A DNA stretch of 42,704 nt from positions 1 to 42,704 of the forward strand of contig JAUCBJ010005545.1 in assembly GCA_032718475.1 (NCBI GenBank), in the 5' to 3' direction. The DNA is from Nemertoderma westbladi. Taxonomy: Eukaryota; Animalia; Xenacoelomorpha. Below the pieces are notes generated by a model. It was given only the letters and a program-made list of their open reading frames with translations. It ran no database searches and was not told where the DNA came from. The translations under genes and the position numbers were made by a program. Of this stretch, positions 11,449 through 30,540 are shown one piece after another. Position 1 is the stretch's first letter, and each line of letters starts with the position of its first letter.

Positions 11449-12050
11449 AGTAGTAGAGGAAGAGGGTTCCTCACCATAGTCCTCCCTAGCTTGGGCTATG
11501 GGAGATATCTCGGAGGACTATTCAAAATGCCAAATTCCGGTGCTAAATTACGGTGTTTAATGACCATCTGCCACCATCAGTATTGATTCGCGTCGTTGCC
11601 ATCAACCAATCATCGATATTCACCTACGCGTAGCCTAACCTAGCGATGCCCACCTTACTCGACTGCTGTTACCACCCGTCAGTATTGATTCGCATTGTTG
11701 CATCAACCAATCATCGATATTCATCTTCGCGTAGCCTAACCTCACGATGCATGGCTAGCCCCCACCCCACACCACGCTATTATATTATATCGTTTGCCAA
11801 CTCATCGATTTACCCTCCGCTAGAGCTACTCGACTGCTGTTACCAAACTAACTAACTAACCAACCAACCAACCAGTATGATACATGAAATTCCGCTACGC
11901 GTCACATACACGTTCTCGCATTTCCATAGTTACTCAACCTAACCTAACCCTCTGCATCTACACCATATTGAAAGGCTACTAACATTATACCGCGTGTTTT
12001 TATTATAATTATTGATTATTATTATTACGCACAACCCAATGATTTATATT
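11449..12050 (+). repeat. Polinton left terminal inverted repeat
   Basis: The first ~165 bp are identical to the reverse complement of the right end and the match is near-identical to ~11764, then more diverged to ~12050. Contains a ~100-bp tandem duplication (11578-11650 and 11679-11750) and (CCAA)n tracts. Confidence 0.95.
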
Positions 12051-12230
12051 CCTACTCTCGCTACCAACCAACCAACCAACCAACCTTCTCAGTTTAAGAC
12101 CTGTATTATTTTTGAAAATATCTTATACTGTATATAATCTCTTGCTTTAATCACAATTAATCATTTATAATGGTTTTAGTTTAAAAGTTTTTACTTTGTT
12201 TGTTTGATTTACAATAAAATAAATTAAATA

Positions 12231-12674
12231 ATGTCTTCTGATTCCGATATGGTTATGCCAATAGTAAGGCATTCATTTTTTGCAGAAGATGGTGAAGCCT
12301 ATATTGTTATTGATTATACAATTTACCGTCGAGGAGATGATAAATATAAAATCGATTTTTCTGAAAAAGCCAGGAAAGTTTTAAGCTCAATTGATATTGA
12401 TGCTTCTGAAAATAGCATTCATCTCTTAGATTACAACCTAAAAGTTGATCATGTGGGAAAATTAATCAACATCTTACTATTATCCATGATAGAGGGGTTA
12501 ATTGTTATTACACAATACAACGAAGCTGGTGAAAAGTTTGAAATACGGCTAAATCGGCATAACCCCTACGAAATTATGTCTTTCTTTATTGTAATGATTT
12601 CAAAAGAATCCTTTGTCGAAACTGAAGAATCAACAGATAATGTGGAATTTGTTGAAAATATCATTGATTCTTGA
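12231..12674 (+). CDS. Polinton accessory protein of unknown function (147 aa)
   Basis: Intact ATG-started ORF in AT-rich DNA, first gene after the left TIR; no motif recognised. Confidence 0.6.
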   Translation: MSSDSDMVMPIVRHSFFAEDGEAYIVIDYTIYRRGDDKYKIDFSEKARKVLSSIDIDASENSIHLLDYNLKVDHVGKLINILLLSMIEGLIVITQYNEAGEKFEIRLNRHNPYEIMSFFIVMISKESFVETEESTDNVEFVENIIDS

Positions 12675-12859
12675 CTTTTCCCCCTATATTATAAATATTT
12701 TATGACTATTTTTAAAATTTTGATCTTTTTAATTATGAAAAAAAAATCAAATTTTAAATAATCGAAAATTGTAGTAGTATTTGTATATACAGTATATCGG
12801 ATTTGTTTGTTTGTTGTGTATTGAGGTAATTATTTTCAATTTACTTTAAAATTTGGAAA

Positions 12860-13309
12860 ATGGATATTTTAAACGAAAAATGTCCAGTTTGCTATTCTAA
12901 GTTATTGCAACATCGAGATTATTATAAATGTGAAAATAAACATGCAACTTGTATGCAATGTATTGTACAATATTCCGAAATGAATAATTATTGTTCTAAA
13001 ATTTGTCCTATTTGTCGCGCGCCCATATCTAAGTTAAATATAAAGTTGGCGAGATACAACCCCTATTATTGGAAAGAGCTACGAAATATAACTTATATTT
13101 CCGCGCAAAGTAATGATCCAGGAGATTTATTTACAATATTGGAGAATATTTTTTATAGAAATGTAGTACGACGGTGTTGCTACTATGTTCCTTATTTTTT
13201 TAGCAGCAAACATAAAAAAATCATTAGCGCGAAATTCCCGGGAAGTGATTTCCAAACTGCTGATGTTACCTATCATTATTTCGCGTATAAAGATGCTCAC
13301 CATGCTTGA
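12860..13309 (+). CDS. Polinton RING-finger (C3HC4) protein, putative E3 ligase
   Basis: CPVC-x11-CENKHATCMQC-x14-CPICRAPI. Confidence 0.8.
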   Translation: MDILNEKCPVCYSKLLQHRDYYKCENKHATCMQCIVQYSEMNNYCSKICPICRAPISKLNIKLARYNPYYWKELRNITYISAQSNDPGDLFTILENIFYRNVVRRCCYYVPYFFSSKHKKIISAKFPGSDFQTADVTYHYFAYKDAHHA

Positions 13310-13526
13310 AATTACATTGAAAATGAGTCTATACTATAATTGGAAATAGCACCTTTTGTTGCAGCGAGCGTCACATACTGTAGTTGTGTCATATGTTAAT
13401 TAAATATACAGCACTCTAATACTGTAGTTGCATCAATTATTGTTATATACATAGTAATGGTGATGGTTTATTGATATTTATATTATATTATATTGTATTT
13501 TTGATATATCTTAATAATAATAATAA

Positions 13527-14211
13527 ATGGCTGACTTTAATTCAGGTCCATATAATTTAAACTTTCAAATGGGAACGAGTATGATAATTTCTGGCCCATC
13601 TGGTTCCGGAAAGTCTACATTTGTTGGCAATTTAATTAAACACAAGAATGGTTGTTTCAACGAACCCCCCTTGCGAGTATTGTATTGTTACGGGAGCAAT
13701 CCCCCGACTATTCCCGGTATTACTCACCTTTACAAAGGTTTGCCTGAAAATATAGATAGTTTAGTGAATAGTCGAGATTTATTAATTATAGATGATTTAT
13801 TAACAGAAACTGAGTCCAGTACAGCTTTAACTGTATTGTTTACTAAGGTAGCTCATCATTCCAATATATTTATTTGTTTTATAATGCAAAACATGTTTTA
13901 CGGTGGGAAGCATAACCGCACAAGATCAATTAATAGCCATACCTTAGTATTAATGAAAAATCCGCGAGACAGTTTATCGGTTTTAAATTTCGCGAAGCAG
14001 ATGTTACCAGGGCAGACCAAATTTTTAGTAGATTTCCTATCAAGATGCGACTATTGAACCATTTTCACATTTCTTAATTGATTTACGACAGGAAACACCC
14101 GAACATTTAAGATTTAGATCGGTTATATTTCGTAATCATAATTGTTACATCAAAAATTACATTGACTATAAACGTAGCGAAAATAATAATAATAATAATA
14201 ATAATAATTAA
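13527..14211 (+). pseudogene. FtsK/A32-like genome-packaging ATPase (frameshifted)
   Basis: Walker A GPSGSGKST, Walker B LLIIDD, HH.N...QN and KNPRD motifs. After a frameshift near 14033 the typical C-terminus YQDATIEPFSHFLIDLRQETPEHLRFRS continues to a TAA at 14209-14211. Confidence 0.92.
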
Positions 14212-14244
14212 TATTTTGTAACAATTTTCAATAATGTTGCAACA

Positions 14245-14628
14245 ATGAATAGACTTGTGCAGAAATATCGTAACGAATTGGAATTTCTACGCAGCGCTAC
14301 CGCTCAACAAAGAACTTATTTTATTAACCATACCGCGAGTAACGAATTAATACGGCTCCTTGTAAATACCGCATTAAATGTTCTAAAAGGTAACGTACAA
14401 TTGACCCTTCATTCATTTAGAAATATTCGTCGTTATAAAAAGGTATTAAAATCACTCAACCGCAAAACAAAAAATATATCAAGTTACAGAAAAAAGTTAA
14501 CCAATCAATCTGGAGGCATACTACCGTTTCTAATACCCTTACTCGGCATTGGTGCGAAACTCGCCGCGAGTGCTGGCGCCGCCGCTGCTGGAGCGGCTAT
14601 TGCGAAAAAAATTAACCGCGGACGGTAA
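14245..14628 (+). CDS. Conserved basic Polinton virion protein with an adenovirus pX-like C-terminal motif
   Basis: NVLKGNVQL, a Lys/Arg-rich middle, then QSGG|ILPFLIPLLG, resembling adenovirus pX MRGG|ILPLLIPLI. Confidence 0.75.
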   Translation: MNRLVQKYRNELEFLRSATAQQRTYFINHTASNELIRLLVNTALNVLKGNVQLTLHSFRNIRRYKKVLKSLNRKTKNISSYRKKLTNQSGGILPFLIPLLGIGAKLAASAGAAAAGAAIAKKINRGR

Positions 14629-14849
14629 TAATGGTTAAAACGGGAGTAACATTTAGAAAATTATATTTAGTATTGAGTAAACCGTTAGCTACTGATTTAA
14701 AACCTCAAGATATACCTAGAGTAAATACTACAAAAAGAAAACCCTTTAAAACATCAACTTCAAAGAAAATAAAATAATTTCAGCTGTTTTTACGGTGATG
14801 CCCTTTATAAGAGATTTGAATATACATATTACTTGCGGTTGTCGAAAAG

Positions 14850-15922
14850 ATGCCACGCAAGATGAGACCGATTTTATCCTGAAGCTTAGACAAAAAACTG
14901 TTAAGAATTTATTTAGATCCTTCATCGCCTGCGGGTTTTGCAAGTATCGCAAAATTAGCAAAAGCCGCAAACATCAAACCAGCTCAAGCCCAGAAATGGT
15001 TGAGCGGGCAAAAGACATACTCCCTTCACGCACCACGTAGACATCATTATCCAACATCTAAAATATTCACGGGAGGGTTAAAAGATATATATATGATAGA
15101 TCTGGTGGATATGCAGTAATATAAATCACAAAATAATAATTATAACTATATATTAACATGTATTGATGCCTTTAGCCGGCTTGCTTTTGCCTATGGTATG
15201 AAGACAAAAACAGGTATTGAAATTATTAGTATATTGCAAAAAATATTCCAGAAGGGTAAACCAAACAGAATCGCGACTGATCAAGGTTCCGAGTTTCTAA
15301 ATAAATCTGTAAGGAAATATTTAGATACTATTGGTGTACAGTATTACGTAATGTACTCTGTGAATAAGGCGGCTATTGTCGAGAGATTCAATAGAAAATT
15401 AAAAACAAAGATGTTCAAAATTTTCACGCAACGGAGAAATAATGTTTGGATAAAAATTTTACTGAAGCTTATCTTTGCTTATAATAGGTCATTTCATAGG
15501 ACTATACAAATGACGCCCATTGAAGTTAATAAGTTTAATGAAACTGAAGTAATTAATCTGTCTAGATTAATCACAATAAAATAAAATTTAAAGTTGGAGA
15601 TACAGTACGATTATCTATCGCGCGTACTGCTTTTGCTAAAGGCTATCGAGAACAATGGACACGTGAATTATTTATTATTCATCGGGTCAGATTGGATAGA
15701 GTACCAGCGGTAATGTTCGATATTAAGGACAGAACCGGTGCTATAATAAATGGTTCATTTTATTCATACGAACTCCAAAAGGTCCACCCGAGTAGTAATA
15801 TTTATCTTCCGATTGACAAAAATATTGGCAAACTTAAAGAATGTGTACGCAATGGGAAAAAAGAATATTTAGTCCGATTCATTGGATCCAAGAAACAGTC
15901 GTGGGTACAGCATATTCAATAA
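14850..15922 (+). pseudogene. Retroviral-like (rve) integrase with a C-terminal chromo-like domain
   Basis: YLDPSSPAGF, IDLVDM, CIDAFSR, TDQGSEF and VERFNRKLK (DDE); then FKVGDTVR..F.KGY...WT.E and KEYLVRFIG...SWV. In-frame stops at 14880 and 15117 and a frameshift near 15555-15585. Confidence 0.92.
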
Positions 15923-16184
15923 GTTTAGGTTTATACTGTATATTAATTCATTTTGGTCACATATGACCGTAATTAATCAATATTAACTCGAATGATATTA
16001 CTATACTATACTGTAAGTCTAATATCTATAGTTCATTCGCTTTAAATAAAGCCAGTAAAATATTGATCCCTCGCATATACTGTAGAAGCGGCAATGAACG
16101 TGGTCACAGATGTCTATAGTTTAACATTATACAGTACAGTATGTACAAAGGAGTCAAGTAGAGAGAGCTTAAATAATAATAATA

Positions 16185-17767
16185 ATGGCTGTAGATACAT
16201 ATATCACTCTAGTTTCAGATAGCTCATTAAACACATACCCCAATAATAACTCTAGCGAGTTTACTGTTGATTTAGCCGAAGAATTATATATTGGTCCAAA
16301 TTCTAAAATTGGGCTTGCTGAGATTGAATACCAAGCAACATACAGTAATATTACTCTGCAAACTCAAATCTCGCTGTCAATCGGGGTAGATGCAAAAGAT
16401 GCCAAATTATACAGTTTATTTCCTAGTATGCATAGCTCTATTCAAGTCATTATTGATGATATAAATAAACTGTTTCATTCTGAAGCGAAATATAGAGATT
16501 TCGAATTCATTTTTAATACAAATAATTCTAGAATTAAATTTAAATTTCCTAAAAAGTTGAAAAAAATACAATTAAGTCTACGCGGTGATTTAATATAAAT
16601 TCTAGGCTTAAAACAGTTATTGGATCAGAATCATCCAGGTATTCCGAATTGGGATATACAGTACAGGCCACCAGAAAAAGCAGATTTCATCCAATGTGAT
16701 CACATGTGAACACATTTGTTCAAGTCATCTGATTGGCAGGTTATGGCTAGATATCTTCTAGATCACACAGCAGGAGGCTAACTTGCTGGGACCGACAAAG
16801 GCTTTGTATGCGGTGCACCTGTATGTCTGATATCAGGTAGATGAGAGAGCCCCCAGGGCGTAACATTGAGGACATGGGCTGTATTGGTAGAGAGATAACT
16901 ACATACAAGACCACATGGAGGTTCATGGAGTGTATGTGAGTGGCTGGGTATGTGGATGGAGGAGCCTAGACCATTAAATAATTAATTTAGTGCAGGGTGA
17001 TGTCGCGCCATTAGTCTGACACCGAGAGGGCACAGAGAAACACCAGAAGATGCCTTAACAGCACTAACTATAGGCCTGCCTACTAGAGACTATTAACCGC
17101 ATACTATAAAGGTAAACAAAATCCTTATCGCATTTCCATCTGCAGTAAGTGACAGTTCGCGGCAAACTACAGAGAGTTTCCAGATTACTAAGCGTTTCAA
17201 AAGTATTCAATTGTATCCTTTGGCGAAAAAATTTTGGTTGTTGCCAATTCAATTATGTTCAATTATGTTCAATTGTCCCGTTCAACAACATTACATTACA
17301 CTGGTACACATTTGATAAAATGTGTTCACAATTGTATAAATCTGCGTTTTCTGGTAGCCTGTACTGTATGCAGTACCACTACAGTGGATGAATTAAGCAA
17401 TATAGAACAGCCGATATTAATTTTAAATTATAGTGGACCAAAAATTTCGGAAATTGGGATTTTAGATTTTCCAAATCCCACGAATATTACTCGTAATAAA
17501 GATACAATCTTCATATATACAGATATTATTGAGAGCTCTTTTGTTGGTGACGCTTTAGCTCCGCTCTTAAGAACCTGTCCTTTAACACAATTAAATCGAA
17601 AATATATTAATCACAAATACGAGAGCATTTGCTATTACTCATTATTGAATAAAAAACTAAAAACAATCTTAATTACTTTACGTGACGGCCAAGGTGAATT
17701 AATTAATTTCAACGGTGGTCGCACTGTTATAACACTTAAGTTAATACGCGGTGGTGGTGATGGATGA
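16185..17767 (+). pseudogene. Minor capsid protein (penton/PX) copy 1, disrupted by a nonsense codon and a MITE
   Basis: N-terminus YITLVSDSSLNTYPNNNSSEFTVDL...IGLAEIEY and C-terminus IYTDIIESSFVGDALAPLLR...ITLRDGQGELINF...ITLKL. TAA at 16596. Removing 16659-17368 rejoins the halves in frame (NWDI|CSTTTVDE). Confidence 0.88.
16659..17366. mobile_element. Tc1/mariner-type MITE (708 bp) inserted in penton copy 1
   Basis: TIRs CAGTACAGGCCACCAGAAAAAGCAGATTT and AAATCTGCGTTTTCTGGTAGCCTGTACTG; TA TSD at 16657-16658 and 17367-17368. Confidence 0.9.
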
Positions 17768-18605
17768 ATTCTATGTTAGGCTACCAAGTAACTCCTGTCC
17801 AATTGATTTTCCCCGTAATACCGGTAGTAATTATCAGATCAATTTCCATGGTGCCTTACCTATAAATCCAAACGAAAACTGGGTGGTAGGTATAAAAAGT
17901 ATATTTTACTTAGCCACGTTACCGTCCATGTATAACAATGTAGAGAATGTTATTTTATTAAAAAAAGGGAAAAAAAAATTTGAGGATACACTTCCATCCG
18001 GCTTGTTCTACAGTATCAATGACATTATAGATTATTTTAACACTGGGGCGTTGAAAGATAAATTACAAATAGTTGAAAATACTCAGCAAAATAGGTTGCA
18101 ATTTATTTTAGGGAAAACTGTACGAGAGTTATTTATAGGTCAACAATTAGCCTATTATTTTGGAATTACTGAAAATAATCTCGGTGCGAATTTAAATCTA
18201 AATTTTAAAATTATTTTGAAGACGAAAAATAATATAAAGGGTTATTTAATAAAGATTATTGGAAATGAAGAAAAAGCTTACCAGATGGTATTTTTATGTC
18301 CTCAACCACCCAATTCTATTCCAGAACCTAAGTCGAACATGTACGTGACTACTAATATAATTGAAAATGAATATATTAATGATTTTGGTTTAGCTTTACT
18401 TCGTCGCGTGGCGATACCTGATGACATGAAATATGGTAGTGTAATAAATAAAGAATTTGCCAAGGATACAATTCATTATATTCCTATAAAAAAATCATAT
18501 AAGATAACATACATTCATATTGAAATAACAGACAAAGAAGGAAAAGATTTGAATTTTGAATACGGCACAACTTCTATTACCTTACACTTTAAAAAAATAA
18601 ATTAA
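17760..18605 (+). CDS. Minor capsid protein (penton/PX) copy 2, intact
   Basis: MDEFYVRLPSNSCPIDFPRNTGSNY...WVVGIKSIFY; MYVTTNIIE...LLRRV; HYIPI...IHIEITDKEGKDLNFEYGTTSITLHFKK. The ATG overlaps the end of copy 1. Confidence 0.88.
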   Translation: MDEFYVRLPSNSCPIDFPRNTGSNYQINFHGALPINPNENWVVGIKSIFYLATLPSMYNNVENVILLKKGKKKFEDTLPSGLFYSINDIIDYFNTGALKDKLQIVENTQQNRLQFILGKTVRELFIGQQLAYYFGITENNLGANLNLNFKIILKTKNNIKGYLIKIIGNEEKAYQMVFLCPQPPNSIPEPKSNMYVTTNIIENEYINDFGLALLRRVAIPDDMKYGSVINKEFAKDTIHYIPIKKSYKITYIHIEITDKEGKDLNFEYGTTSITLHFKKIN

Positions 18606-18606
18606 A

Positions 18607-19167
18607 ATGGATTCCAATTTATTTCAAAGATACAGTAAACCTCAATATGGTGGTGCAGACTCTAATCTTGCTGTTTTTAAAGGTGGTAGAAGTACGAGAG
18701 GCTCGACGCAAGTTCCTGTTTTTCGAGGTGGTTCATATATTGACCCTTACGGTCAACAATTGGTGCATTTGGTCCAAACTTAAAACAACGTCGATTTCAA
18801 CGTTATCGTAGAGGTATGCGGACAAATCAACACGGGGAAGGTATATTTACAGACGCTTTATCTACATTGAAAAAATTTGGAAAGCCATTAGCAAAAAAAG
18901 TTTTACAAAAAGCTTTACCATTTACCACAAAATTTATGAGAACACGTAATACCAAAAGGTAAGCGGGTCTTACATCAGCAGGCTAATACGGTTATTAATA
19001 AAGCATTAAACAAAATGAAACCATCAACAAGATCGGTCGTAGAAAATGTTTATAGAGATTTAAAGCGACCGACTAGACCAATGTCTATGAACATACATCA
19101 TCGTCATAGTAAAAATAGAAAAATAAAAGGCAAACTGAAACACTGCGAAAAAGGTATCTTTTTATAA
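18607..19167 (+). pseudogene. Basic core/membrane-lytic virion protein with GG protease sites (two frameshifts; absent from the ORF track)
   Basis: Manual translation: MDSNLFQRYSKPQYGGADSNLAVFKGGRSTRGSTQVPVFRGG / QRRFQRYRRGMRTNQHGEGIFTDALSTLKKFGKPLAKKVLQKAL / basic tail ending KGIFL*. Lies between penton and MCP. Confidence 0.7.
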
Positions 19168-20426
19168 TGTCAATTATTAAGGAATTAGATTTATTTTCTA
19201 CACAGCCAATATAGACTGAATTTAAAGCAAAGCATTATGAAACAATTTACCCGGTATCTAATCTCAGAAGTGAATCTAGGGAAGTCACGTTTCTTGTACC
19301 AAGATCCAATGAATTCTATACGAAACTGCAAGATGCGTTATTAATTATAAAATGTACTGTACGGTGGGATAGACGACTTGAAAACTCCCATATTTATATG
19401 TTGAATTACCCTTTTGGAACTATGTGGAGTGATATTAAAATAGACCTTAATGAGAAGCAGGTTGAAAATAGCAATAACCATTATTTCTACAAGTCGTACT
19501 TATCCAATTTACTATTTACAACATACGAATCTAAAAATGGGCTACTGGGGGCAGGCGGCTTTTGTCAGCCTTTATCCGAACACGGAAATGAAATTAATCC
19601 CGGCGCGCATCCTATTGGCGATGCCTTTAGTAAACAAATGCAATTTGTAAGCGGATTGACGATTGATTTTGATACTGAAAGTAAAATAATACAACCCGGG
19701 TATGATTTAAGAATACATTTTAGAAAAGTATCAAATTCGTTTATTTTTAAAATCACTCCAAACGCAAATGCTGTGACAAATCTTCGGCTAGAATTAGATG
19801 AAGTAAAGATCCTAATCCTTAGAATGGAGGTTAATCCAGTAATAGAAAGCAGCCATCTAAAAGGTTTAGAGAGCTACGATATTGAATATCAATTTAAAAA
19901 AAAAGAGGTTACTACATTTACTATTCCCGCTCAAACCACAAATTACACCCAAACAAACATATTTGATGGTAAAAAACCCAAATTAGTTATTATCGGTTTT
20001 ATAACAAATAATTCATATTCGGGAGAATTAACTAGTAATCCGTTGAAATTTGAACATTTTAACCTTAGACGCGCGGAACTGATTGTAGACGGTCTTCCAG
20101 TAGGTGGTGTAATATACGAGCCTAATTTTACAGATGGAACATACATTTTTGAGTATACTCAATTAATGAAGAACATTAGTACATATATTAACGGTTATGG
20201 AGGTAATAATATAGACCATGAAACCTACTTAGGTAATTGCCCACTCATATCCTGGGACCTAACTGCCGACGGCTATGTTAGAGATCCACAGCCATCGATA
20301 TATACTAACGGACAATTAAAATTAAGATTTGCCGAACTGTTGGTTGAGACCATAAATGTAATCGTTTTTAATATTTATGATCAATCATTAAGTTTAAATA
20401 GCAGGAAAGAAATACATATCGATTAA
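19167..20426 (+). pseudogene. Double jelly-roll major capsid protein (PY/hexon) with one premature stop
   Basis: The ATG at 19167 gives MSIIKELDLFSTQPI*TEF (TAG at 19212), in frame with ORF 19398-20426. Typical motifs: NHYFYKSYL..LL, F.G.KP....IGF..N..Y.G....NP..F.HF, WDLTAD, LKLRFA..L. Confidence 0.9.
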
Positions 20427-20428
20427 GT

Positions 20429-20892
20429 ATGTTATCTACAGTGGACCTTGATATGTTTCCAGTGGGTGGTCACTATTTGGGGGCATTTCCATCTAATAAA
20501 TTACCTAAATTAGATAATAATAATAATAAGCGAAGAGACTATGGGTTAATAGTAAATACCGATAAAGCGCATCTGCCAGGTGTTGATTGGGTGGCTATAT
20601 ATATACGAGATAATGAAGCTGAATTATTTAATTCGTTTGGTCCAAAATATCCAAACAGATGTATTGACATGTAAAATGGCTTGAGAAAAATTCAGCAAGG
20701 TGGTGTACTACTCGCAAGCAATTTCAAAACCCTAGAAGGACCATATGCGGGTTATACTGTCTTCATTACTTGGTAAATCGAATTCACACAAACTATCCAA
20801 TGAGAGCGTTTACAAATAATGTGGAAATAAATGAAATAATATTATATAAATGGCTTGTTAATTATTATAAAATAAACCAACAAACGTTGTAA
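20429..20892 (+). pseudogene. Adenain-like cysteine maturation protease (inactivated)
   Basis: YLGAFPSNKLP, IVNTD...PGVDWVAI (expected catalytic H replaced by D), FNSFG; after a frameshift near 20670, QFQNPRRTICGLYC continues to a TAA at 20890-20892. Confidence 0.88.
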
Positions 20893-20923
20893 TTAATCAT
20901 TTAACTTTTGTTTATCAGATAAA

Positions 20924-21525
20924 ATGGATATAATATTATTTTTGTTGATTTTCAATATTATACGATAGACAATAAGGAATATCCGGTAGTATTTAAAGAA
21001 TTTGCTATATTCGATTCTAATTACACCAAAACTAATGTAAAGACGTTTTTAATTAAAGGACCTCCTGATATTAAGTTATCAGCATTAGATAAAGCCCACG
21101 TAAACAATTTACGGGACATGACTTCACATTTACCCTGGGATTATGGTGACATTTCGCAAAATGACTTTAAAAAGTACATGAAGAGACATTTAAAATATAA
21201 AAAAAATATATATGTATTCGGGTTGATGAAGCTGGCAATATTAATTTCCAAACTTGATGTACTTGCTCCAAAATCGATGGAGAAATTGGGAATATATCAA
21301 CGGTATTACAACTATTTAACCCCTTGCCCCTTCCACGATCAATTTACTACACTAGAAAATAAATGCGCTTACCACTTAAACAGAAAGGATAACTGTCTGT
21401 GGTACTGCTCCGCAAAACGTGTCGGAGGGTATGAATTGAAACGATTATTCGTGAGAAAGCGATTAACTGAGACTGATGATAAACAGAAAGAAATAACTGC
21501 GGTGGAAGATGTACTCGTACAGTAG
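20924..21525 (+). pseudogene. DEDD/Maelstrom-like nuclease-fold protein with a putative ECHC Zn site
   Basis: The frame of ORF 21118-21525 is open upstream to ~20923 (IIIFVDFQ...FKEFAI...FLIKGP...HLPWDYGDI) and later has CPFH-x9-CA. The ATG at 20924 is out of frame by one extra TA in a (TA)n run. Confidence 0.55.
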
Positions 21526-22450
21526 GTTTACTCTAAGCATGTAATATGATGGGATAATATAATTGTTTTAATGTCAATAAAAATAATAAAAACATTAAAA
21601 TCTGTTTTTTATATCTTAGTTTGACTAAAGGTGGGGGGTTTAGGTTTACACTCTCAAACACACCACAACTACCGGTAGCCGACTGTTGTATCTGAGTTTA
21701 ACTACCAGTAGCTGACTTTACACATACAGACATATAACAGCAGCAGAATGGCTCCCCTTCAGTCCTTCTAGACTGACAGCACCCACAGCGCTTTAGCGTT
21801 ACTTACTAGTAATAAAATTAAATTAACTCGACATGTGGTTCGTGAATGCGGCATTAGAGTGGCCCCCCTAACAATAGGCCTACTGGTACCGGCACTGTAG
21901 CACTCTTGTAACTGTATACTTGGATACCGGTAGGGCAAGGGCACGCTGGTTTCTCCGATTTAAGGATTAGGCTATTACACTTGAATGCTTCCAATTTTAT
22001 GTTTACAACTTTAATTGGTCTAATCTACATTATTATTATTACTGCGGGGTACTGGTACTACTGTTGCATAGGTAAGCCTATACAGCTATAGTTAACTTTA
22101 TGCGGCCCCCCTTTTTCGAATGTTGACCCAATATGGTTTACGGTTAACCTTTAGAACTCGCGGATAGGCACACCTTCATTCGGTCAGGCATATAGGCCTA
22201 ATGACTACTCCTCAACTGAAAGCCGGCTAGCTCATTGATACAATAGGTGTGGCTAGCAATATATAAAATTCACCGCTCACAAGTTCATTCATTCACTCCA
22301 TGTTGTAGGCCTATATAAAACATAGTTAGTTTATTTATGTATTCGCTTTTTAATTAGATATAAAATATACAATACAAAAAACCTACTGATACTGGTAACA
22401 CATTAACACTGAACCAAACAGACGTGACTAATTATATACGAGTCTACTTG

Positions 22451-22834
22451 CTACTGGTGTATTCTTGGATCTGTCGGAAGTAGTAGAGTCGGAGCAGGAG
22501 CTACTGATATTTCTTCTTGTTCTTCCCAGTGCTCACCCCTACTATAATTATCCAGACTTATCTGGTGAGCTTCTCCTGGTTGGACCCGAACGTTTAAATT
22601 AAAGTTTTTATTTGTTGACAATGTAGTTTGTCGACCTTCGCCACTCGTTTTATTCTTAACCATTATACTAATCTCACCATTGTTATTTTTCAAATGTAAT
22701 TCCATTACATTTAATGATGTAAAAAAGAGTTCTTCCCCATCGAGATCAAATTTTAATAGACAGTCGCTATCTCTATTTCCAATAAATGAAAACGCTATGT
22801 TGGATGTTGGTTGATTGCTTGAATGATGAATCAC
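22451..22834 (-). CDS. Polinton orphan ORF (5' end uncertain)
   Basis: 127-codon open frame with a non-ATG start next to a homopolymer run; minus-strand AATAAA downstream at ~22331; no motif recognised. Confidence 0.45.
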   Translation of the reverse strand: MIHHSSNQPTSNIAFSFIGNRDSDCLLKFDLDGEELFFTSLNVMELHLKNNNGEISIMVKNKTSGEGRQTTLSTNKNFNLNVRVQPGEAHQISLDNYSRGEHWEEQEEISVAPAPTLLLPTDPRIHQ

Positions 22835-23547
22835 CGCGACTGAAGTTTGGAGGTTAGTTTTTTTTTTTGAGCAAGTACAAATATAAGTAGGTCTATACTG
22901 GTATTTTATTTTTTTTTATTTACGGTAACAAAATTATACTTAAGATAGAAAAAATTGAGTTTATATATATTTTTGTAGTGGGTCGCAGATGTTTACATTA
23001 CAAAATTCACATAGTTAACAAAATGCAGAACATAAACCTTTCCCATGCGGATTAGCGATATATGCTCTGTTCATTGTTCTATTCTGAATGTAGGGAAATG
23101 CATAGCTGATGTTTTAATAATATGTACTGGTATACAGGCTAGTAACAGATAGGAGGGCTTCGACTTTGACTATGAATACCAGTACATAGCCCTAAACTTT
23201 TCTCACCGAGCTTAGCGTTGCCTGCTGCACACACACACTCGCACACACTCACTCTCATAAGTAACAGATGCGCTACTGTAGCTCACTCGTGAGCTGCGAT
23301 GCTTAGCTAGCTAGCTAGCTACTGTCTCTGGGTATACTATGCATACTTGGGAGTTACAAGCAATCGCTCTACCGAAGTTAGTTAGTTAGTTAGTTAATTT
23401 CCCCAACTAGTTGTTGATTTAAAAAATATTCATAAATTTCGTCTCCCTCCAATTTAATATATATATATATATATCGGTATATATTTTACAGTAAAAAATC
23501 TCCACCACTAAACAACAACAATAAATTTAACTCTCTCTAATTATATT

Positions 23548-24117
23548 TTACATCAAAAACCCACCACCAAACAATAATAAATTATTAACCAGTTTGTTGA
23601 ATATAGGATAATATATATGAAATTTAAACGGAGAACACATTAATGTACATTTACCAGTGTAGAAGCAGCAAACAACAACAATATTATTTATTCTGACTTT
23701 ATAGTTATTGAATATTTCGGGGTCGTATGAAATTTCTAGTTTAACATTATCAAATATAACATAAAACCCGATATTGTTTATAAGTAACCTATAGATTATG
23801 GTGTCGATACTAAAAATATAAGTACACAAATTGATAGATTTAAAAATCAAATTAATGTTTGTTTTTTCGAATATATGCTTTTTCACTTTATTAAAATTAT
23901 ATTTTCTACCGAGAATTGTTATTCGTCCATTTGTAAACATTAATATGGTTGGACCAAATACCTTATATATAAACTGATTAGGTTTGAGTACAATTTTACC
24001 TGTCAATTGATTTTTTAATTCTTTTAAATTAAGTCCATAAATGATCTGCTTACAACTTATATTTTTATTTACTATTTGATAATTCATCATCAACATCATC
24101 GCCTTTTGGTTCTTCAT
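23548..24117 (-). CDS. Divergent TATA-box-binding-protein (TBP)-like protein
   Basis: Two TBP-type half-repeats: VNKNISC...LNLKEL...P.QFIYK...TILMFTNGRITILG and INLCTYIF...YDPEIFN.YKVR...VCCFYTGKCTLM (compare TBP LIFSSGKMVCTG and YEPELFPGLIYR...LIFVSGKVVLTG). The true start is probably near 24090, overlapping the pPolB end. Confidence 0.7.
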   Translation of the reverse strand: MKNQKAMMLMMNYQIVNKNISCKQIIYGLNLKELKNQLTGKIVLKPNQFIYKVFGPTILMFTNGRITILGRKYNFNKVKKHIFEKTNINLIFKSINLCTYIFSIDTIIYRLLINNIGFYVIFDNVKLEISYDPEIFNNYKVRINNIVVVCCFYTGKCTLMCSPFKFHIYYPIFNKLVNNLLLFGGGFLM

Positions 24118-27100
24118 AAATTGGTATATTTGATATTTTTATAGGTTTTTTGAGGTTTGTTTTATAGTGCCCCCAAGGAAGTGATTGATTTTTATTAACC
24201 CAATAAAGTTTATCATCAAAGCTACTGAGTGCAAATTTATTTTGCTTTAAGGTATAAATACGATGTAATTTAGATTGAAATCTGTGTATGTTTTTTTTAT
24301 TTCTTCATTTGCGTTATATGCTTTTAAATATTCTTCATGTGTAATATTCGTTTCCACAACAGCTCTTGTAATACCTTTTGCTCTACGAATATTTTTGTTA
24401 TTCCATTCCAAAATTGAATATAATTTTGGTCTTAAAAATACAGCTTGTTTAATTTCACGTGAGGCTAGTTCATCTTTACAGTAATAAAGTCCCGATTTAT
24501 TTTTATTACTATAAAGCGGGTGATCCTTAGGGTAATTGGATGTATCTAAAATATTATTTTTAATTAATGCTTTTAAAAAATTATTCTGCGATGTATTATA
24601 GTAACAACCTATTAATGAGTCTGTATCTGATGTAGCAATTTCAATACGGCAGTTTAATTCTTTCTCAATAGGTAGCAATTTATCGTAGTACAGCTCATAC
24701 ATATCCAGTTTAGCCAAATCCAACACTGCGCTACCAATAAATATAGGCTTATCGAGAGTTACAGAGTCTTTCACTAATAAATGTCCCGATAATGTATTAT
24801 TGTATATTATAAATTGTTCATGATTAATACGATTCACCAATTGGTCACATTTATCATTGCTATTTGCGATACGAAAGTTACATCGATCCCGTATCTTTTC
24901 TATTGACTTACCGAATAAAGAGTTATTAAGCAGCTTTGCGACAGCCGTTTCAATGTAACTTTTTCTAGTCGCCTTTGATTAATATTATAATCTATGTAAT
25001 TTTTAAATACAAATTCTTGTTGAAAAGAATATAATTTATGTAGTTTAGTAACAATTAATCCATGTTTTATATAAAATTTTAACAGTTTCAAATATAAATG
25101 ATAAAATTCTTTATCAAATTGCGTCAGCAAGAGTTTTGGTGTAGGCATCTTATATTTACTGGAGGTACCTCTTTGTATCGATAAGTTATTAAATTGTTCC
25201 CTCATATAAGGTGAAAGCATTGATTCATTTATACTTAAATGCTCTGGGGCTAATGGTAATTGTAATGTTTGATCGTGAATAGCTTTGGGGTAATTTAAAT
25301 CACATATTATAAAATATCCAGTAGATCCGTCATTGTCTAAATCTACCAAGTACTCGATTAGTTTTTCTGGAATTGCATTCTCTAAATGTTTAATACTTAC
25401 TTCTTTGAATTGTGAGGTGGGTAGTTTTTTACTTAAATTCCCAGAATATAAAGAGTTGAAATCAATATTAAAAATATGGCATTCTTCCTTAGTAGAATCA
25501 TATGTACTTGTTTCGGGTATATTTGATTCTATATAATGCTTTCGACAAAATGAAACACCACCCCTAATTGATTTTTCAAAATCTCTATATGTCTGATAAT
25601 CCTTTATTAATTCTATTTTACATTTATTATATTTTAGTGCGCAATCATAGGTAAATGACGCAATACTACAGTAAAAAACCACTTCTAAATCGTAATTTTG
25701 TTTACAAACATTCCTAAAATTCTCAAATATATCAGCAAGCAAACAAACATCGAGTTTTAAATAGGCTAAAAGATAATCTTTGAGATTCACACAGTCGAAT
25801 TCTACCCATGATAATCCCGCAAACCTATAATCTTCAATTGTGCATGTTTTTTGACTTAAGTTACTAAAAAAATTATTTATAGATGGTAAACCAGTATCAT
25901 TAAATTTATTTATATCTGTCAAGTACTCGTATGGAAATACTCCTTTCCGATTAATTGTTGAGTTATTCAAGTTTGGATAAAAATATTTCATTTCTTGTAG
26001 AGTAATAGGTAAAATTGAGCTTATATCATGACTCGCTACATCCTTTGTTGAACACTCAACTAAATTACTTAAAGAAAAGCTTAAAAATTGATATGTGTCT
26101 AAGACACGTAACTCAATTTTTTTCGAAGTGTTTTTAATTGGGATAAATGCACTCAGTGAAATATATCGTTCTGTATTTCTCGGTATAACCTTTATATCCC
26201 AATCCGTGTATTTCTTATCTCTAAATCCGGTTTATAATATACAATGTATATCATAATTATTGGAATTGTGCCCGCAAAGTACATACAGGTATCGTTTCAA
26301 TGATAAACTTCGGTTACAACTATTACAGGCTGCCGCAATATATTTACCTGTAATATGTGAATGATGTCTGTTTTTCCCTACATTATTATTTAAAGTAACA
26401 TTACAATAGAAACAAAATTTTGCCTGTTCAAAATTTACAAAATCAATATTAGTAAATAACATAGTTTTATGAGTGTATATTTCTGACCAACAACATAATT
26501 CATTTAAATCAGTATATAATGAATCTAAGAAATCTTGAATACAATTATTATTATTTGACTTTACGAATGTTTTCAAATGACATTTTGGAGGATCAATTAA
26601 TTCACTATTGGGAACAATTAAATAACTCACAGCACACAGTATATGCTCCTGTATAAATTGATTATTAACTGAAGGTTGTAAGATACATTCTATATCAAAG
26701 TAGGTGACAAACAATGGGGATAAGGTTCTATCTAAATTTGTAAAACTAATGTGTGTTCTTTTTTTATTAGGTAGTTTCTCTCGTTGACTTCTTCCTTGGT
26801 AGCAGACGAGACGGTGTCGATGAAGAACTTCCGCTCGAAAAAAATGTCCCAAACACCTTTCACAATATTTCCTATTGTGGATATGAAGAGCTCTCGTATT
26901 CAGCAATCGATTCAAGTTAGTTATGCAAACATAATGATTCAGTTTAGGTACATTGTTATTTTTTACTACAAGTAATATATTTAATAACTCTTTATCAGAT
27001 GTAATTTTACTAAACGGTGGTTGTCTTAATATAGATACGGGGGTGCGTTTGTTGTCGTTATTCCAACATAGTAAATTAATTATATATTTAGAATTTTGTT

Positions 27101-28121
27101 TTTCAAAAAGTTTAATCGCTAACTGCCACTCTGTTGGATAATCATTTTTCCTGTTGTCAAAAATGAAATGACTCATATAATTTTTGTACGACGAAGTATG
27201 GTTTTTGTTGTTTTTCACTTTGCTACCAAATTTTGCGGTTATAATAGCCCATTTGAAACAGTCATTATCAACCGTTTGTATATTTATTGTACATTTTTTA
27301 GCTGATAGAGCCTTAGGTAATTCCATATATCCATGCCCCTTATATAGTAACGACCTACACTTAGATTCAGCTAATTTAATTTCAACCCTTAATAAAGATT
27401 TAACGCGCCACCCTGAGCCACGTGTGTTAAAGATGGCTATTTTTTGTAATATATTTTCCACCACATACTCAAACCATGTGTCAAAACTTTGTGATGAATC
27501 TACAGTATTAATAGTACCACCGGAAGAATTAAAATAAAAGGTTTCCAATTGCTCGCCTTCTGAAAAATGTGATCTGTACATTAATACATTTAGACCTCAC
27601 CACAGTCTAAGAACATTCATTTCTTTCAATCTATCTAATATTAACTGAAGAATATTACCTCGAATTTGCGTTAATGCTGTTTCTACATCGGGATAATCTC
27701 TAGAAGTTGGGAGGTCGTGGACATAAATTTCAAGACGATTATCGTGAGCTTCTTGTTCCCGCGTAAAAATTGTTGCGCATGTACCAAGAGCCACCCTTAA
27801 GTTTTTTCTAGATAATATATTTTTATGTTGCGGAGATTTACGCTTTCTTGTGTAATAACATTTCAAGTGACAGTCGTGTCTTAAATAATTCTCATATGTA
27901 TACTCTTTATTACAGGTAGAACAAGTCAATTGATAGGTACGGAACTCCATTTCTTTACAACCTGTAGTTGATTCATGTCGTTTATAAATTTCGCTGCATG
28001 AAGTCACAACATGACACTTAAAACAAGAATAACCTTCAAAATGTGACCGTAGGTGGCGTAAATAATTATGTCTAGTTACATTCATATGACAGAATGAACA
28101 ACATATTGTTATTTTATCCAT
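24065..28121 (-). pseudogene. Protein-primed family B DNA polymerase (pPolB) with N-terminal Zn fingers, OTU-like region and endonuclease VII-like insert
   Basis: Exo I YFDIE, Exo II HNSNNYD, Exo III YLKLDV, RKGVFPYEY, IRGG, motif A DFNSLY, motif B KLLNNSLFGK (shifted frame), motif C DTDS, and C-terminus KFALSSFDDK...PWGHY. In-frame stops at 27597 and 26232; frameshifts near 24965 and 24295. Confidence 0.95.
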
Positions 28122-28319
28122 GTTAAAGTTTGTTTAGATTAATAATAATAATAATAATAAAATATCACCAAAGATTAAAATAAAATGAAATGAAATGAAA
28201 TGTTTTTGACTATATCTAAACATTTATATGCTAGCGAGTGAAATAATTTTAAATCAATCACCAATCACCAATCGCTTATGGGTGTTGGAAACCTCAAAGA
28301 GTTTAACTTATGATCAGGT

Positions 28320-29384
28320 TTACATGTTAGAATAATAATCTGGTTTCCATGGAGAATTAGTAACTGGATCTACTGGAACTAGGTTACCGGCAACTTTCTG
28401 TTTCTTTGCAGGTGATGCGTTGGTAAATTTACTTGATGATCTTGGCTTCTGAGGTAATATTTCAGGAAAGACCTGTTGCGGTTGAGGGCAACTCTCTTCA
28501 ACATCCGGATTAGGTGATGGGATCTCTACGAATGCTTTAGGTTTATCCAAAAGGACAAAACCATCTACATTGGCTTCAGTAAGAGAAACACCATCCATAG
28601 CCTCTTTGAGAAAACTAATATGGGTTTTATCCTTCAAGTAATGCAACTCAATAGAATTTCCACCTGCTCCTACTTCAGTAGAATTATCGGTGTTGGTGAT
28701 AATAATTTTTTTATTATTGGTTTTAATCATTTTGAGACGGTCTGATAATTGAATGATATTTTTATCAAAAAGATGCTTGTCTGTTTCATCGATTTGGGTG
28801 TCCCACTCTCGCAACAAAACGGTTAGTTCCTGATTTGACAAATTGAAACCCATATAATAGTTAAAACCAACACTATCACCGTATCTGAGGCTGATTTTCC
28901 ATAAGCCAACATAGTTGGTTCCTTTAAAAGCTGTTACAAATCCAATAAACTCTGGATTTGATAATTCAATGTAGAATTGATCGCTAATAATCTCTAGCGG
29001 TGGAGAGAGAAATTGCAATAATTTCCCTCTGTATTGAATTAGAACTTCAGTAAAAGCTTTGTTGAGAACTTTACATTTGCCTTGTTTCTGAACGTAAACA
29101 TCACCCGACGTGGGGTTGATAGAAATATTCAAGTTTCCTCGCGCAAAACGAAGAGCAGCATATATCCTACCTGGTATAATTGCTGGTCTGGATTGATGTT
29201 GGTTGTTGTTGGTTGTTTCTAGAATGTCTAGCAAATAGCGGGTATCTTGATGGGAAAAACAAATTGATTCGTTGTCCTCCTGAGATTCCACAATAAAATA
29301 CTTGATGTGAACGACGGTACAAGTATATTTATTGTAAGTAAATTTCCAGCTATTTGTTGCTCCAGTTTTTTGCGTTAAGGCCAT
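28320..29384 (-). CDS. Putative PC4-like ssDNA-binding/coactivator-fold protein (354 aa, intact)
   Basis: FVTAFKGTNYVGLWK...GFNLSNQELTVL resembles the PC4 pattern VSVRDFKGKVLIDIREY...GISLNPEQWSQL. Weaker second and third copies are possible (ICFSHQD, GVSLTEAN). NLS-like PAKKQK near the C-terminus. Confidence 0.5.
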   Translation of the reverse strand: MALTQKTGATNSWKFTYNKYTCTVVHIKYFIVESQEDNESICFSHQDTRYLLDILETTNNNQHQSRPAIIPGRIYAALRFARGNLNISINPTSGDVYVQKQGKCKVLNKAFTEVLIQYRGKLLQFLSPPLEIISDQFYIELSNPEFIGFVTAFKGTNYVGLWKISLRYGDSVGFNYYMGFNLSNQELTVLLREWDTQIDETDKHLFDKNIIQLSDRLKMIKTNNKKIIITNTDNSTEVGAGGNSIELHYLKDKTHISFLKEAMDGVSLTEANVDGFVLLDKPKAFVEIPSPNPDVEESCPQPQQVFPEILPQKPRSSSKFTNASPAKKQKVAGNLVPVDPVTNSPWKPDYYSNM

Positions 29385-29743
29385 AATAATAATAAATACG
29401 AAAAATATTACAAGTGATAAATTTTAAACCGTATCGCTGTAATAAATTGACACCCATAATAATAACTTTTCAATATAAGAGAGAATCAATAGTAAAAATT
29501 CTGCCATATATTGAAAAGTTATTATTAGGAAAAGGTTAAAAGGAATCAATTTATTACCATGATGATTACAAGTGATGAATTTTAATAAAAACATTCAGTT
29601 ATATATAATTTCTGAATATGTGATGTGGCATAATCAACGTTGAAGAAATGGGATGTGGCATAATCAACGATGAATAAGAAAAGAGATGGGATGCAATGTG
29701 GATGAATGGTTGGTTGGTTGCGTGGATAGGAAATACATGATCG

Positions 29744-30540
29744 AATATGAATCATTGGGTTGTGCGTAATAATAATCAATAATTATAATAAAAACGCGCA
29801 GTATAATGTTAGTAGGCTTTCAATATGCCGCAGATGCTGAGGGTTAGGTTAGGTTGAGTAACTATGGAAATGTGAGAACGTATACGTGACGCGTGGCGAA
29901 ATTTCATGTATCATACTGGTTGGTTGGTTGGTTGGTTTGGTGACAGCAGCCGAGTAGCTCTAGCGGTGGGTAAATCATTGAGTTGGCAATCGATATAATA
30001 TAATAGCGCGGCGTGGCGTGGTATATGCGTGGTGTGCGTAGATGGCCACATCGTCCATGACTGGCTCTATCATCGTTGTCATCATATACAGTATGTGGTA
30101 GCAAGGCGAAAAGGGGAGTAACCGGAGGGCTAGGCAAGCAAGCATCGCTGTTGGTTTGGTTGGTTGGTTGGTTGGTTGGTTGGTTGGTAGGTAACAGCAG
30201 TCGAGTAGCGATGGGTTGGGTATGTGGGGGCTAGCCATGCATCGTGAGGTTAGGCTACGCGAAGATGAATATCAATGATTGGTTGATGCAACGACGCGAA
30301 TCAATACTGACAGGTGGTAACAGCAGTCGAGTAAGGCGGGCATCGCTAGGTTAGGCTACGCGTAGGTGAATATTGATGATTGGTTGATGGCAACGACGCG
30401 AATCAATACTGATGGTGGCAGATGGTCATTAAACACCGTAATTTAGCACCGGAATTTGGCATTTTGAATAGTCCTCCGAGATATCTCCCATAGCCCAAGC
30501 TAGGGAGGACTATGGTGAGGAACCCTCTTCCTCTACTACT
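29744..30540 (-). repeat. Polinton right terminal inverted repeat (has ~205 bp missing from the left TIR)
   Basis: Reverse complement of 11449-12050 with an extra segment at ~30015-30222. Confidence 0.95.

What the first reader, a model, noticed from the sequence alone, without database searches (positions are those of the whole stretch)
23548..29384. Minus-strand replication/transcription module: PC4-like - pPolB - TBP-like
Seen: the minus-strand genes form one co-oriented block facing the plus-strand virion block, with polyA signals converging at ~21577 and ~22331. Known: PC4 is both an ssDNA-binding protein and a Pol II coactivator acting at the TBP/TFIIA step. Inference: an early unit supplying polymerase, SSB/coactivator and vTBP could switch on the late structural unit, giving a two-stage transcription programme in a Polinton. 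This is my best candidate for an undescribed system in the window.
Basis: inference. Interest (0 to 1): 0.8.

Follow-up and report, generated by a model that had tools for sequence, protein, structure and literature searches.

The report
Polinton's own rewired TATA-binding protein
A broken copy of a high-copy virus-like transposon (Polinton) in an animal genome carries its own altered TATA-binding protein, which likely steers the host's RNA polymerase II to the particle-building genes, while the neighbouring 'PC4-like' gene has no confirmed fold and is more likely a separate single-stranded-DNA-binding protein for replication than a partner in that switch.

Summary
The block lies in a 19-kb Polinton (11449-30540, 6-bp target duplication). 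The TBP-like ORF is real: Pfam, NCBIfam, ESM Atlas and a shuffle-controlled profile agree. It keeps the four DNA-bending phenylalanines and the acidic TFIIB stirrup; its N-lobe (TFIIA/Mot1 side) and several DNA contacts are altered. No TFIIB-like gene was found. The PC4 assignment was not confirmed by any profile; only a by-eye motif and background-level structural hints remain, pointing to a multi-repeat Pur/PC4-type protein. pPolB is broken in this copy. The polyA signals exist but are at chance density, and the minus-strand genes have separate TATA boxes, so this is not one unit. Weak support for two stages: canonical TATA before 3-4 of 4 minus genes versus 1 of 8 core plus genes, and TAAGA before 5 of 8 core genes (p about 0.01, uncorrected). 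An unrelated marine Polinton has a mini-TBP away from pPolB and no detectable PC4, against a fixed module. TBP was already labelled in a MELD-virus figure, and this scan noted TBP Polintons in other genomes. Likely a minimal late-gene switch; untested.

The parts
11449..30540 (.). Polinton/Maverick element, ends AGTAGT...ACTACT, 6-bp target-site duplication, terminal inverted repeats of about 640 nt
   Evidence: 317 nt at 98% plus 327 nt at 86%
23548..24117 (-). Divergent two-lobe TBP (vTBP), 189 aa, basic (24 K+R, 7 D+E); true start may be one of the Met residues at 7-11
   Evidence: Pfam PF00352 23.3 bits over cut-off 22.9; both halves hit TBP first; NCBIfam NF001597 residues 18-158; Atlas 29 of 30 hits TBP; 17.0 bits vs max 9.2 in 2000 shuffles
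24068..28121 (-). Protein-primed DNA polymerase B with N-terminal C2H2-like zinc fingers and an endonuclease-VII-like insert; broken into five pieces in this copy
   Evidence: tblastn to 28 of 35 IMG/VR loci and 115 of 120 metagenome loci; weak Endonuclease_7 hits
28320..29384 (-). 354-aa ORF with predicted repeated beta-meander/helix units and a Pro/Ser/Lys-rich tail; candidate Pur/PC4-type ssDNA-binding protein, fold unproven
   Evidence: low-confidence model, pLDDT 35.5; 5 of top 50 VIA rows are Sub1/Pur-alpha, Z 4.2-5.0; no profile hit
22451..22705 (-). Fourth minus-strand ORF (84 aa; frame open to 22915), function unknown
24136..24143 (-). Canonical TATAWAWR 26 nt before the vTBP ATG, inside the pPolB 3' end (a second TATAAAA at -49)
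28221..28228 (-). Canonical TATAWAWR 107 nt before the pPolB ATG
29600..29607 (-). Canonical TATAWAWR 223 nt before the PC4-like ATG
14108..20327 (+). Candidate late boxes (A/T)TAAGA at 14108, 14808, 17568, 18500, 20323 (before pX-like, integrase, second minor capsid, pVI-like, protease); also 12095 before the first ORF
   Evidence: suggestive only
13527..20889 (+). Core plus-strand block: A32-type ATPase, pX-like, rve integrase, two minor-capsid-like ORFs, pVI-like, major capsid, protease; most are broken
   Evidence: pVI-like and minor-capsid labels partly by eye
21576..22335 (.).
   Evidence: not above background density

Best explanation
The element encodes a real but altered TBP that likely acts as a promoter-selecting factor: predicted to bend a non-canonical A/T box (candidate TAAGA) before particle and integration genes and to recruit the host's TFIIB and RNA polymerase II, while the PC4-like protein likely serves strand-displacement replication as a separate ssDNA-binding protein. 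Shown: TBP fold and residue pattern, separate canonical TATA boxes before the minus-strand genes, no polymerase or TFIIB-like Pfam hit in the element, broken pPolB and virion genes in this copy. Inferred: host TBP transcribes the minus-strand genes first; vTBP then accumulates and opens the plus-strand genes; its altered N-lobe would free it from TFIIA/Mot1-type control. This copy is dead as an autonomous element.
For: TBP fold. Invariant in a 35-sequence alignment including the window and L175 proteins: N19, F49, F61, G70, Y131, E134, F136, F152, G155, equal to yeast N69, F99, F116, G125, Y185, E188, F190, F207, G210 (numbering). TFIIB stirrup reads YDPEIF, both acidic signature positions kept; these mediate TFIIB binding (PMC7221094). 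No TFIIB hit among 19 element ORFs, whereas most TBP-bearing viruses have their own TFIIB. DNA face more polar: V71>S, V122>T, V213>T, P191>N, as in KSHV ORF24 (PMC12529657). Canonical TATA: 3 of 4 (260 nt) or 4 of 4 (300 nt) minus genes vs 1 of 8 core plus genes. TAAGA: 5 of 8 core, 0 of 4 minus, background 0.19, p 0.008, rank 2 of 1024 5-mers. L175 has (A/T)TAAG at -39 to -42 before 4 of 12 genes, two sharing one site.
Against: Promoter statistics rest on one degraded copy with guessed starts and no mapped transcription starts. The TATA contrast depends on the window (Fisher p 0.24, 0.07, 0.01 at 150, 260, 300 nt; p 0.27-0.41 with TATAAA). TAAGA was one of 6 motifs x 3 windows, lies at scattered distances (-42 to -192) and is missing before ATPase, first minor capsid and major capsid. 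De novo search found only A-rich leaders. T124>L, T215>M, G216>C and an uncertain second Asn may weaken DNA binding. No homologue of either protein was found to test conservation. The SSB role rests on an unproven fold.
Confidence: 0.5

Rival explanations
1. One reading: the PC4-like protein doubles as a Pol II coactivator working with vTBP, and the three genes form one early module.
For: Co-orientation and adjacency; PC4-like motif by eye in residues 147-200; two unchecked scan notes report TBP with PC4-like in flatworm Polintons.
Against: PC4 fold unconfirmed. The fold is shared by replication and unwinding proteins, e.g. phage T5 (PMC7549692). vTBP N-lobe stirrup is changed (VLKPNQF plus a 3-residue deletion); PC4 coactivation needing TFIIA is recalled. 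Separate TATA boxes. L175 has TBP inside the virion cluster and no Pfam PC4 in 13 ORFs tested. The scan notes describe a different gene order.
Confidence: 0.12
2. vTBP is a decoy or repressor: it occupies TATA-like DNA or sequesters host TFIIB, damping host genes or the element's own early promoters.
For: Keeps DNA-intercalating Phe and TFIIB stirrup but has an altered N-lobe, a dominant-negative-like pattern; its own gene has two TATAAAA boxes just upstream; no consistent late box.
Against: TAAGA bias towards core plus genes; herpesvirus TBP mimics activate late genes.
Confidence: 0.2
3. vTBP has been recruited as a DNA-bending or ssDNA-binding helper of replication or packaging, which would explain its place overlapping the pPolB 3' end.
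For: Overlap with pPolB; strongly basic; a divergent Giardia TBP binds ssDNA (PMC12209930, search listing only).
Against: Retention of the acidic TFIIB signature has no use in this role; in L175 TBP is not next to pPolB.
Confidence: 0.1

Closest known systems
Beta/gamma-herpesvirus TBP mimics (KSHV ORF24, EBV BcRF1, HCMV UL87) and TATT late promoters
   Same: Nuclear DNA virus without its own RNA polymerase; viral TBP keeps four Phe and has a more polar DNA face (PMC12529657 passages); would direct host Pol II to late genes.
   Different: ORF24 is large, binds Pol II directly, needs five other viral factors and lacks the TFIIB acidic residues. The Polinton protein is a bare 189-aa core that keeps them; no partner activators were identified.
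TBP/TFIIB pairs of large dsDNA viruses (Nucleocytoviricota, poxvirus VITF-3)
   Same: Viral two-lobe TBP with diverged N-lobe signatures (PMC7221094 passages; PMC12917281 abstract).
   Different: Those viruses mostly encode a matching TFIIB and, for poxviruses, their own polymerase; neither was detected here.
Polintons/Mavericks, animal adintoviruses and MELD viruses (Starrett et al., PMC8502044)
   Same: pPolB, rve integrase, A32 ATPase, capsids, protease, TIRs; a gene labelled 'TBP' appears in the legend of their Fig. 5.
   Different: That paper gives only the label, in a section on non-animal datasets; no mechanism, promoter or PC4 mention in the main text. This pPolB is a long branch with no close relative among 35 others.
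PC4-like fold superfamily (PC4/Sub1, Pur-alpha, Whirly, phage T5 protein)
   Same: Predicted repeated beta-beta-beta-(beta)-alpha units; Sub1 and Pur-alpha among top structural rows.
   Different: No sequence-profile support; three or four units in one chain would resemble Pur-alpha (three repeats, PMC7549692) more than the single-unit coactivator PC4.
Adenovirus E2 region versus major late unit (recalled)
   Same: ssDNA-binding protein and protein-primed polymerase on one strand, virion genes on the other.
   Different: Adenoviruses use host TBP for late genes and an unrelated DNA-binding protein.

Membership tests
Polinton/Maverick | Long terminal inverted repeats, AG...CT ends, 6-bp target-site duplication | tested here: met
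Polinton/Maverick | pPolB plus retrovirus-like integrase | tested here: met
   (both broken in this copy)
Polinton/Maverick | Packaging ATPase, major and minor capsid, protease | tested here: met
   Pox_A32 E 0.001; tblastn to L030 ATPase, MCP, minor capsid, protease
TBP family | Two tandem TBP lobes | tested here: met
   single-sequence AlphaFold model uninformative
TBP family | Four intercalating Phe | tested here: met
   F49, F61, F136, F152 invariant in A3; F49 adjoins a 3-residue deletion
TBP family | Acidic C-lobe TFIIB signature | tested here: met
   D132 and E134
TBP family (eukaryotic) | N-lobe regulatory surface for TFIIA/TAF1/Mot1 | tested here: inconclusive
   stirrup changed and helix H2 about 5-6 residues shorter but still basic; register uncertain
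TBP family | Binds and bends TATA-like DNA | not testable with these tools
   needs binding assay
PC4-like fold | Sequence match to PF02229 or a PC4 profile | tested here: not met
   (own profile had only 4 archaeal sequences)
PC4-like fold | beta4-alpha units pairing into a swapped dimer | tested here: inconclusive
   model pLDDT 35.5; Sub1 Z 5.0, rmsd 4.9, 66 aligned; Pur-alpha also appears for the TBP model
PC4 coactivator | Pol II coactivation with TFIIA | not testable with these tools
   needs in vitro transcription
Herpesvirus-type late vPIC | TATT(W)AA late box | tested here: not met
   0 of 8 core genes
Herpesvirus-type late vPIC | Large TBP mimic with Pol II-binding domain plus five partner factors | tested here: not met
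   189-aa protein; no such Pfam hits among 19 element ORFs
Viral TBP/TFIIB pair | Element-encoded TFIIB | tested here: inconclusive
   no TFIIB hit; three unknown ORFs remain unassigned

The most novel reading that the evidence does not exclude
Some Polintons run the smallest viral late-gene switch known: one altered TBP, with no viral TFIIB or polymerase, that reads a private (A/T)TAAGA box, plugs into host TFIIB and escapes TFIIA/Mot1 control, while a multi-repeat Pur/PC4-type protein serves as the long-missing Polinton ssDNA-binding protein.
Probability: 0.33. Interest if true: 0.78.

Novelty: new variant of a known kind. Interest (0 to 1): 0.5.

Why it matters
How Polintons time their genes is open: they lack an RNA polymerase and no promoter logic turned up in my searches. 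A single-protein TBP switch would show that these elements have a regulated viral cycle, give a compact orthogonal TBP-promoter pair that can be tested in vitro, and offer a marker (late-box activity) for when particles are made.

Tried and rejected
No whole genome held. Homologue searches empty for TBP ORF and PC4-like ORF; one MCP homologue at 24%; no exact cluster for 10 window proteins. Single-sequence AlphaFold models were low confidence (pLDDT 33.3, 35.5); Foldseek gave nothing usable; VIA on the TBP model gave Z under 3, with RnlA and RNase H3 in 3 of 26 rows. HHalign of 41 TBPs to the ORF: probability 38%, E 0.0003. TAC(A/T)GTA, frequent before plus-strand genes, rejected as promoter: about 6-fold enriched in flanks too (13, 24, 7 vs 2.1, 4.4, 1.3 expected); likely transposon footprints (recalled). 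De novo motif search: only A-rich leaders. TAAGAA, ATAAAC, TATTWAA, YTATAA not enriched. TBP profile found nothing in 28 IMG/VR pPolB loci (best E 0.12) and 1 of 120 metagenome loci (most are short fragments). Pfam on 150 of 376 candidate ORFs from 23 loci: 0 PC4, 0 TBP; weak, since Pfam PC4 misses the window ORF itself. Family searches in 7 of 28 viral records held: 0. Quick pPolB tree unresolved; window and L175 not sisters, one origin not excluded. No RNA holder listed. Literature: 10 searches; none listed a paper on TBP or PC4 function in Polintons; PMC10748475 and 10.1101/2024.03.18.585575 have no 'TBP' in the main text. Figures and supplements were not seen and may annotate these genes.
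Full report
Setting. The window is animal genomic DNA: a CK2-beta exon matches PDB CK2-beta chains at 58 of 58 residues. A Polinton spans 11449-30540 with AGTAGT/ACTACT ends and a 6-bp target duplication and inverted repeats of about 640 nt. Runs of two coded organisms hold it; thousands of contigs at 85-99% identity were laid from one run (8001 in X1), so it is a high-copy, diverse family. No whole genome was available. Most genes in this copy are broken.

Observation. The three minus-strand units exist and are co-oriented. pPolB begins at 28121 with zinc-finger-like motifs and is in five pieces; its pieces match pPolB in 28 of 35 IMG/VR loci and 115 of 120 metagenome loci. Its last piece overlaps the TBP start. 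A fourth minus ORF (22451-22705) lies between TBP and the minus-strand polyA signal. AATAAA occurs 44 and 39 times on the two strands, so the converging signals are real letters but no evidence by themselves.

The TBP-like ORF. It passes the Pfam TBP cut-off (23.3 vs 22.9 bits); each half hits TBP as best family (E 0.012, 0.044); the full-length NCBIfam TBP model covers residues 18-158 (E 0.009); 29 of 30 Atlas hits are TBP clusters, score 0.94, although recognition was below the Atlas threshold. A half-repeat profile from 74 natural TBP lobes scores it 17.0 bits against a maximum of 9.2 in 2000 shuffles. Structure prediction without an alignment failed. Numbering through a canonical eukaryote-type TBP (L041 position + 57 = yeast) shows N69, all four Phe, Y185, E188 and G210 kept, E186 as Asp, and changes at V71, V122, T124, P191, V213, T215; the second Asn is ambiguous between registers. 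The N-lobe stirrup differs and three residues after the first Phe are missing. PMC7221094 (passages) assigns the two acidic C-lobe positions to TFIIB binding and the N-lobe to TFIIA, TAF1, Mot1 and NC2, and reports that viral TBPs mostly come with a viral TFIIB. None was found among 19 element ORFs. Inference: this TBP bends DNA, uses host TFIIB and may have changed specificity. Some changes could be private to this decayed copy; one position in the ORF differs from all contigs laid.

The PC4-like ORF. No library or profile supports PC4. What remains: a by-eye motif in residues 147-200 that MAFFT aligns to four archaeal PC4 proteins at 25% to the first (the N-terminal unit aligns at 28%, so this is not discriminating); a low-confidence model with repeated strand-meander/helix units; and 5 of the top 50 VIA rows being Sub1 or Pur-alpha, all on residues 2-69, best Z 5.0, rmsd 4.9, 66 aligned. 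These Z values are background level, and Pur-alpha also appeared for the unrelated TBP model (Z 2.4). If the fold holds, several units in one chain resemble Pur-alpha, and the fold serves unwinding and replication as well as transcription (PMC7549692 passages). An SSB upstream of a strand-displacing polymerase is the simpler reading (inference).

Promoters. Canonical TATAWAWR lies before PC4-like (-223), pPolB (-107), TBP (-26) and the fourth ORF (-262), against 1 of 8 core plus genes; significance depends on the window (p 0.24, 0.07, 0.01). This argues for separate promoters rather than one unit. De novo search found no late box. Earlier scan notes named TAAGA-type boxes in other genomes, so I tested those: TAAGA lies within 260 nt of 5 of 8 core genes and 0 of 4 minus genes (background 0.19, p 0.008, second of 1024 5-mers), and 5 of 7 plus-strand sites in 12100-21600 lie within 200 nt of a start (p 0.012). 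It was one of six motifs at three windows, distances scatter, and ATPase, first minor capsid and major capsid lack it: suggestive only.

Co-occurrence. One other TBP-bearing Polinton was found, L175 from a metagenome: intact zinc-finger pPolB, integrase, ATPase, protease, capsid and a 162-aa mini-TBP (Pfam E 7e-8) placed among virion-side genes, with no Pfam PC4 in 13 ORFs over 12.5 of 16 kb. Its cluster has a member on 180 contigs, ENA/Logan/Tara sources. It has (A/T)TAAG at -39 to -42 before 4 of 12 genes, two sharing one palindromic site. The two TBPs are barely similar and the polymerases are not sisters in a quick tree. So TBP recurs in Polintons but not in a fixed PC4-pPolB-TBP order; the sample is too small and fragmentary for a formal test.

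Prior knowledge. Starrett et al. label a 'TBP' gene in MELD-virus figure legends (sections read) without analysis. Herpesvirus TBP mimics direct late transcription (listing; PMC12529657 passages); poxvirus VITF-3 is a TBP/TFIIB pair (abstract). PMC13134418 passages added no residue detail. Ten searches found no functional account for Polintons; figures and supplements were not seen. This scan has noted TBP Polintons in several other genomes, unchecked.

Verdict. vTBP real; PC4 unproven; coupled module unsupported; two-stage programme plausible with weak promoter evidence. New variant of a known kind, interest 0.5.

Noticed in passing
window 26915-28412 (+): Run X4 (kind guessed DNA) has joints 26915>27916, 26915>28412 and 28057>28412 with GT..AG ends and good splice consensus on the plus strand: apparently spliced RNA antisense to pPolB and the PC4-like gene, perhaps read-through or silencing-related.
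   Followed up: partly
window 16657-17368: About 710-nt MITE-like insertion with inverted ends starting CAGTACAGG, flanked by TA, splitting the first minor-capsid-like gene.
   Followed up: partly
window 21592-23228: A contig in X1 skips this 1635-nt stretch, which holds the fourth minus ORF and the 22330 polyA signal; it may be variable between copies.
   Followed up: partly
window 7299-10268 and 33413-36013: Intronless host genes: PXA-RGS-PX sorting nexin with a 27-nt Gly-rich repeat insert, and a SNF2 (HELLS-like by eye) helicase with 45-nt repeats, while the CK2-beta gene nearby has introns.
   Followed up: no
window 37716-42704: 24-nt satellite, 208 copies, 99% matches, running to the window end.
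   Followed up: no
whole window: TAC(A/T)GTA about 6-fold enriched everywhere, like Tc1/mariner excision footprints (label recalled).
   Followed up: partly
L175:1-12493: Intact, widespread marine Polinton with mini-TBP, dUTPase-like, F-box-like and DUF4326 genes; good material for testing the TBP-box model.
   Followed up: partly
window 12231-13309 and 20924-21525: Accessory plus-strand ORFs: unknown 147 aa, RING 149 aa, and a 200-aa ORF with a DEDD-nuclease-like start (by eye; no Pfam hit on the part scanned).
   Followed up: no
L043:5584-7284: 566-aa giant-virus protein with an N-terminal TBP domain fused to a long basic extension.
   Followed up: no
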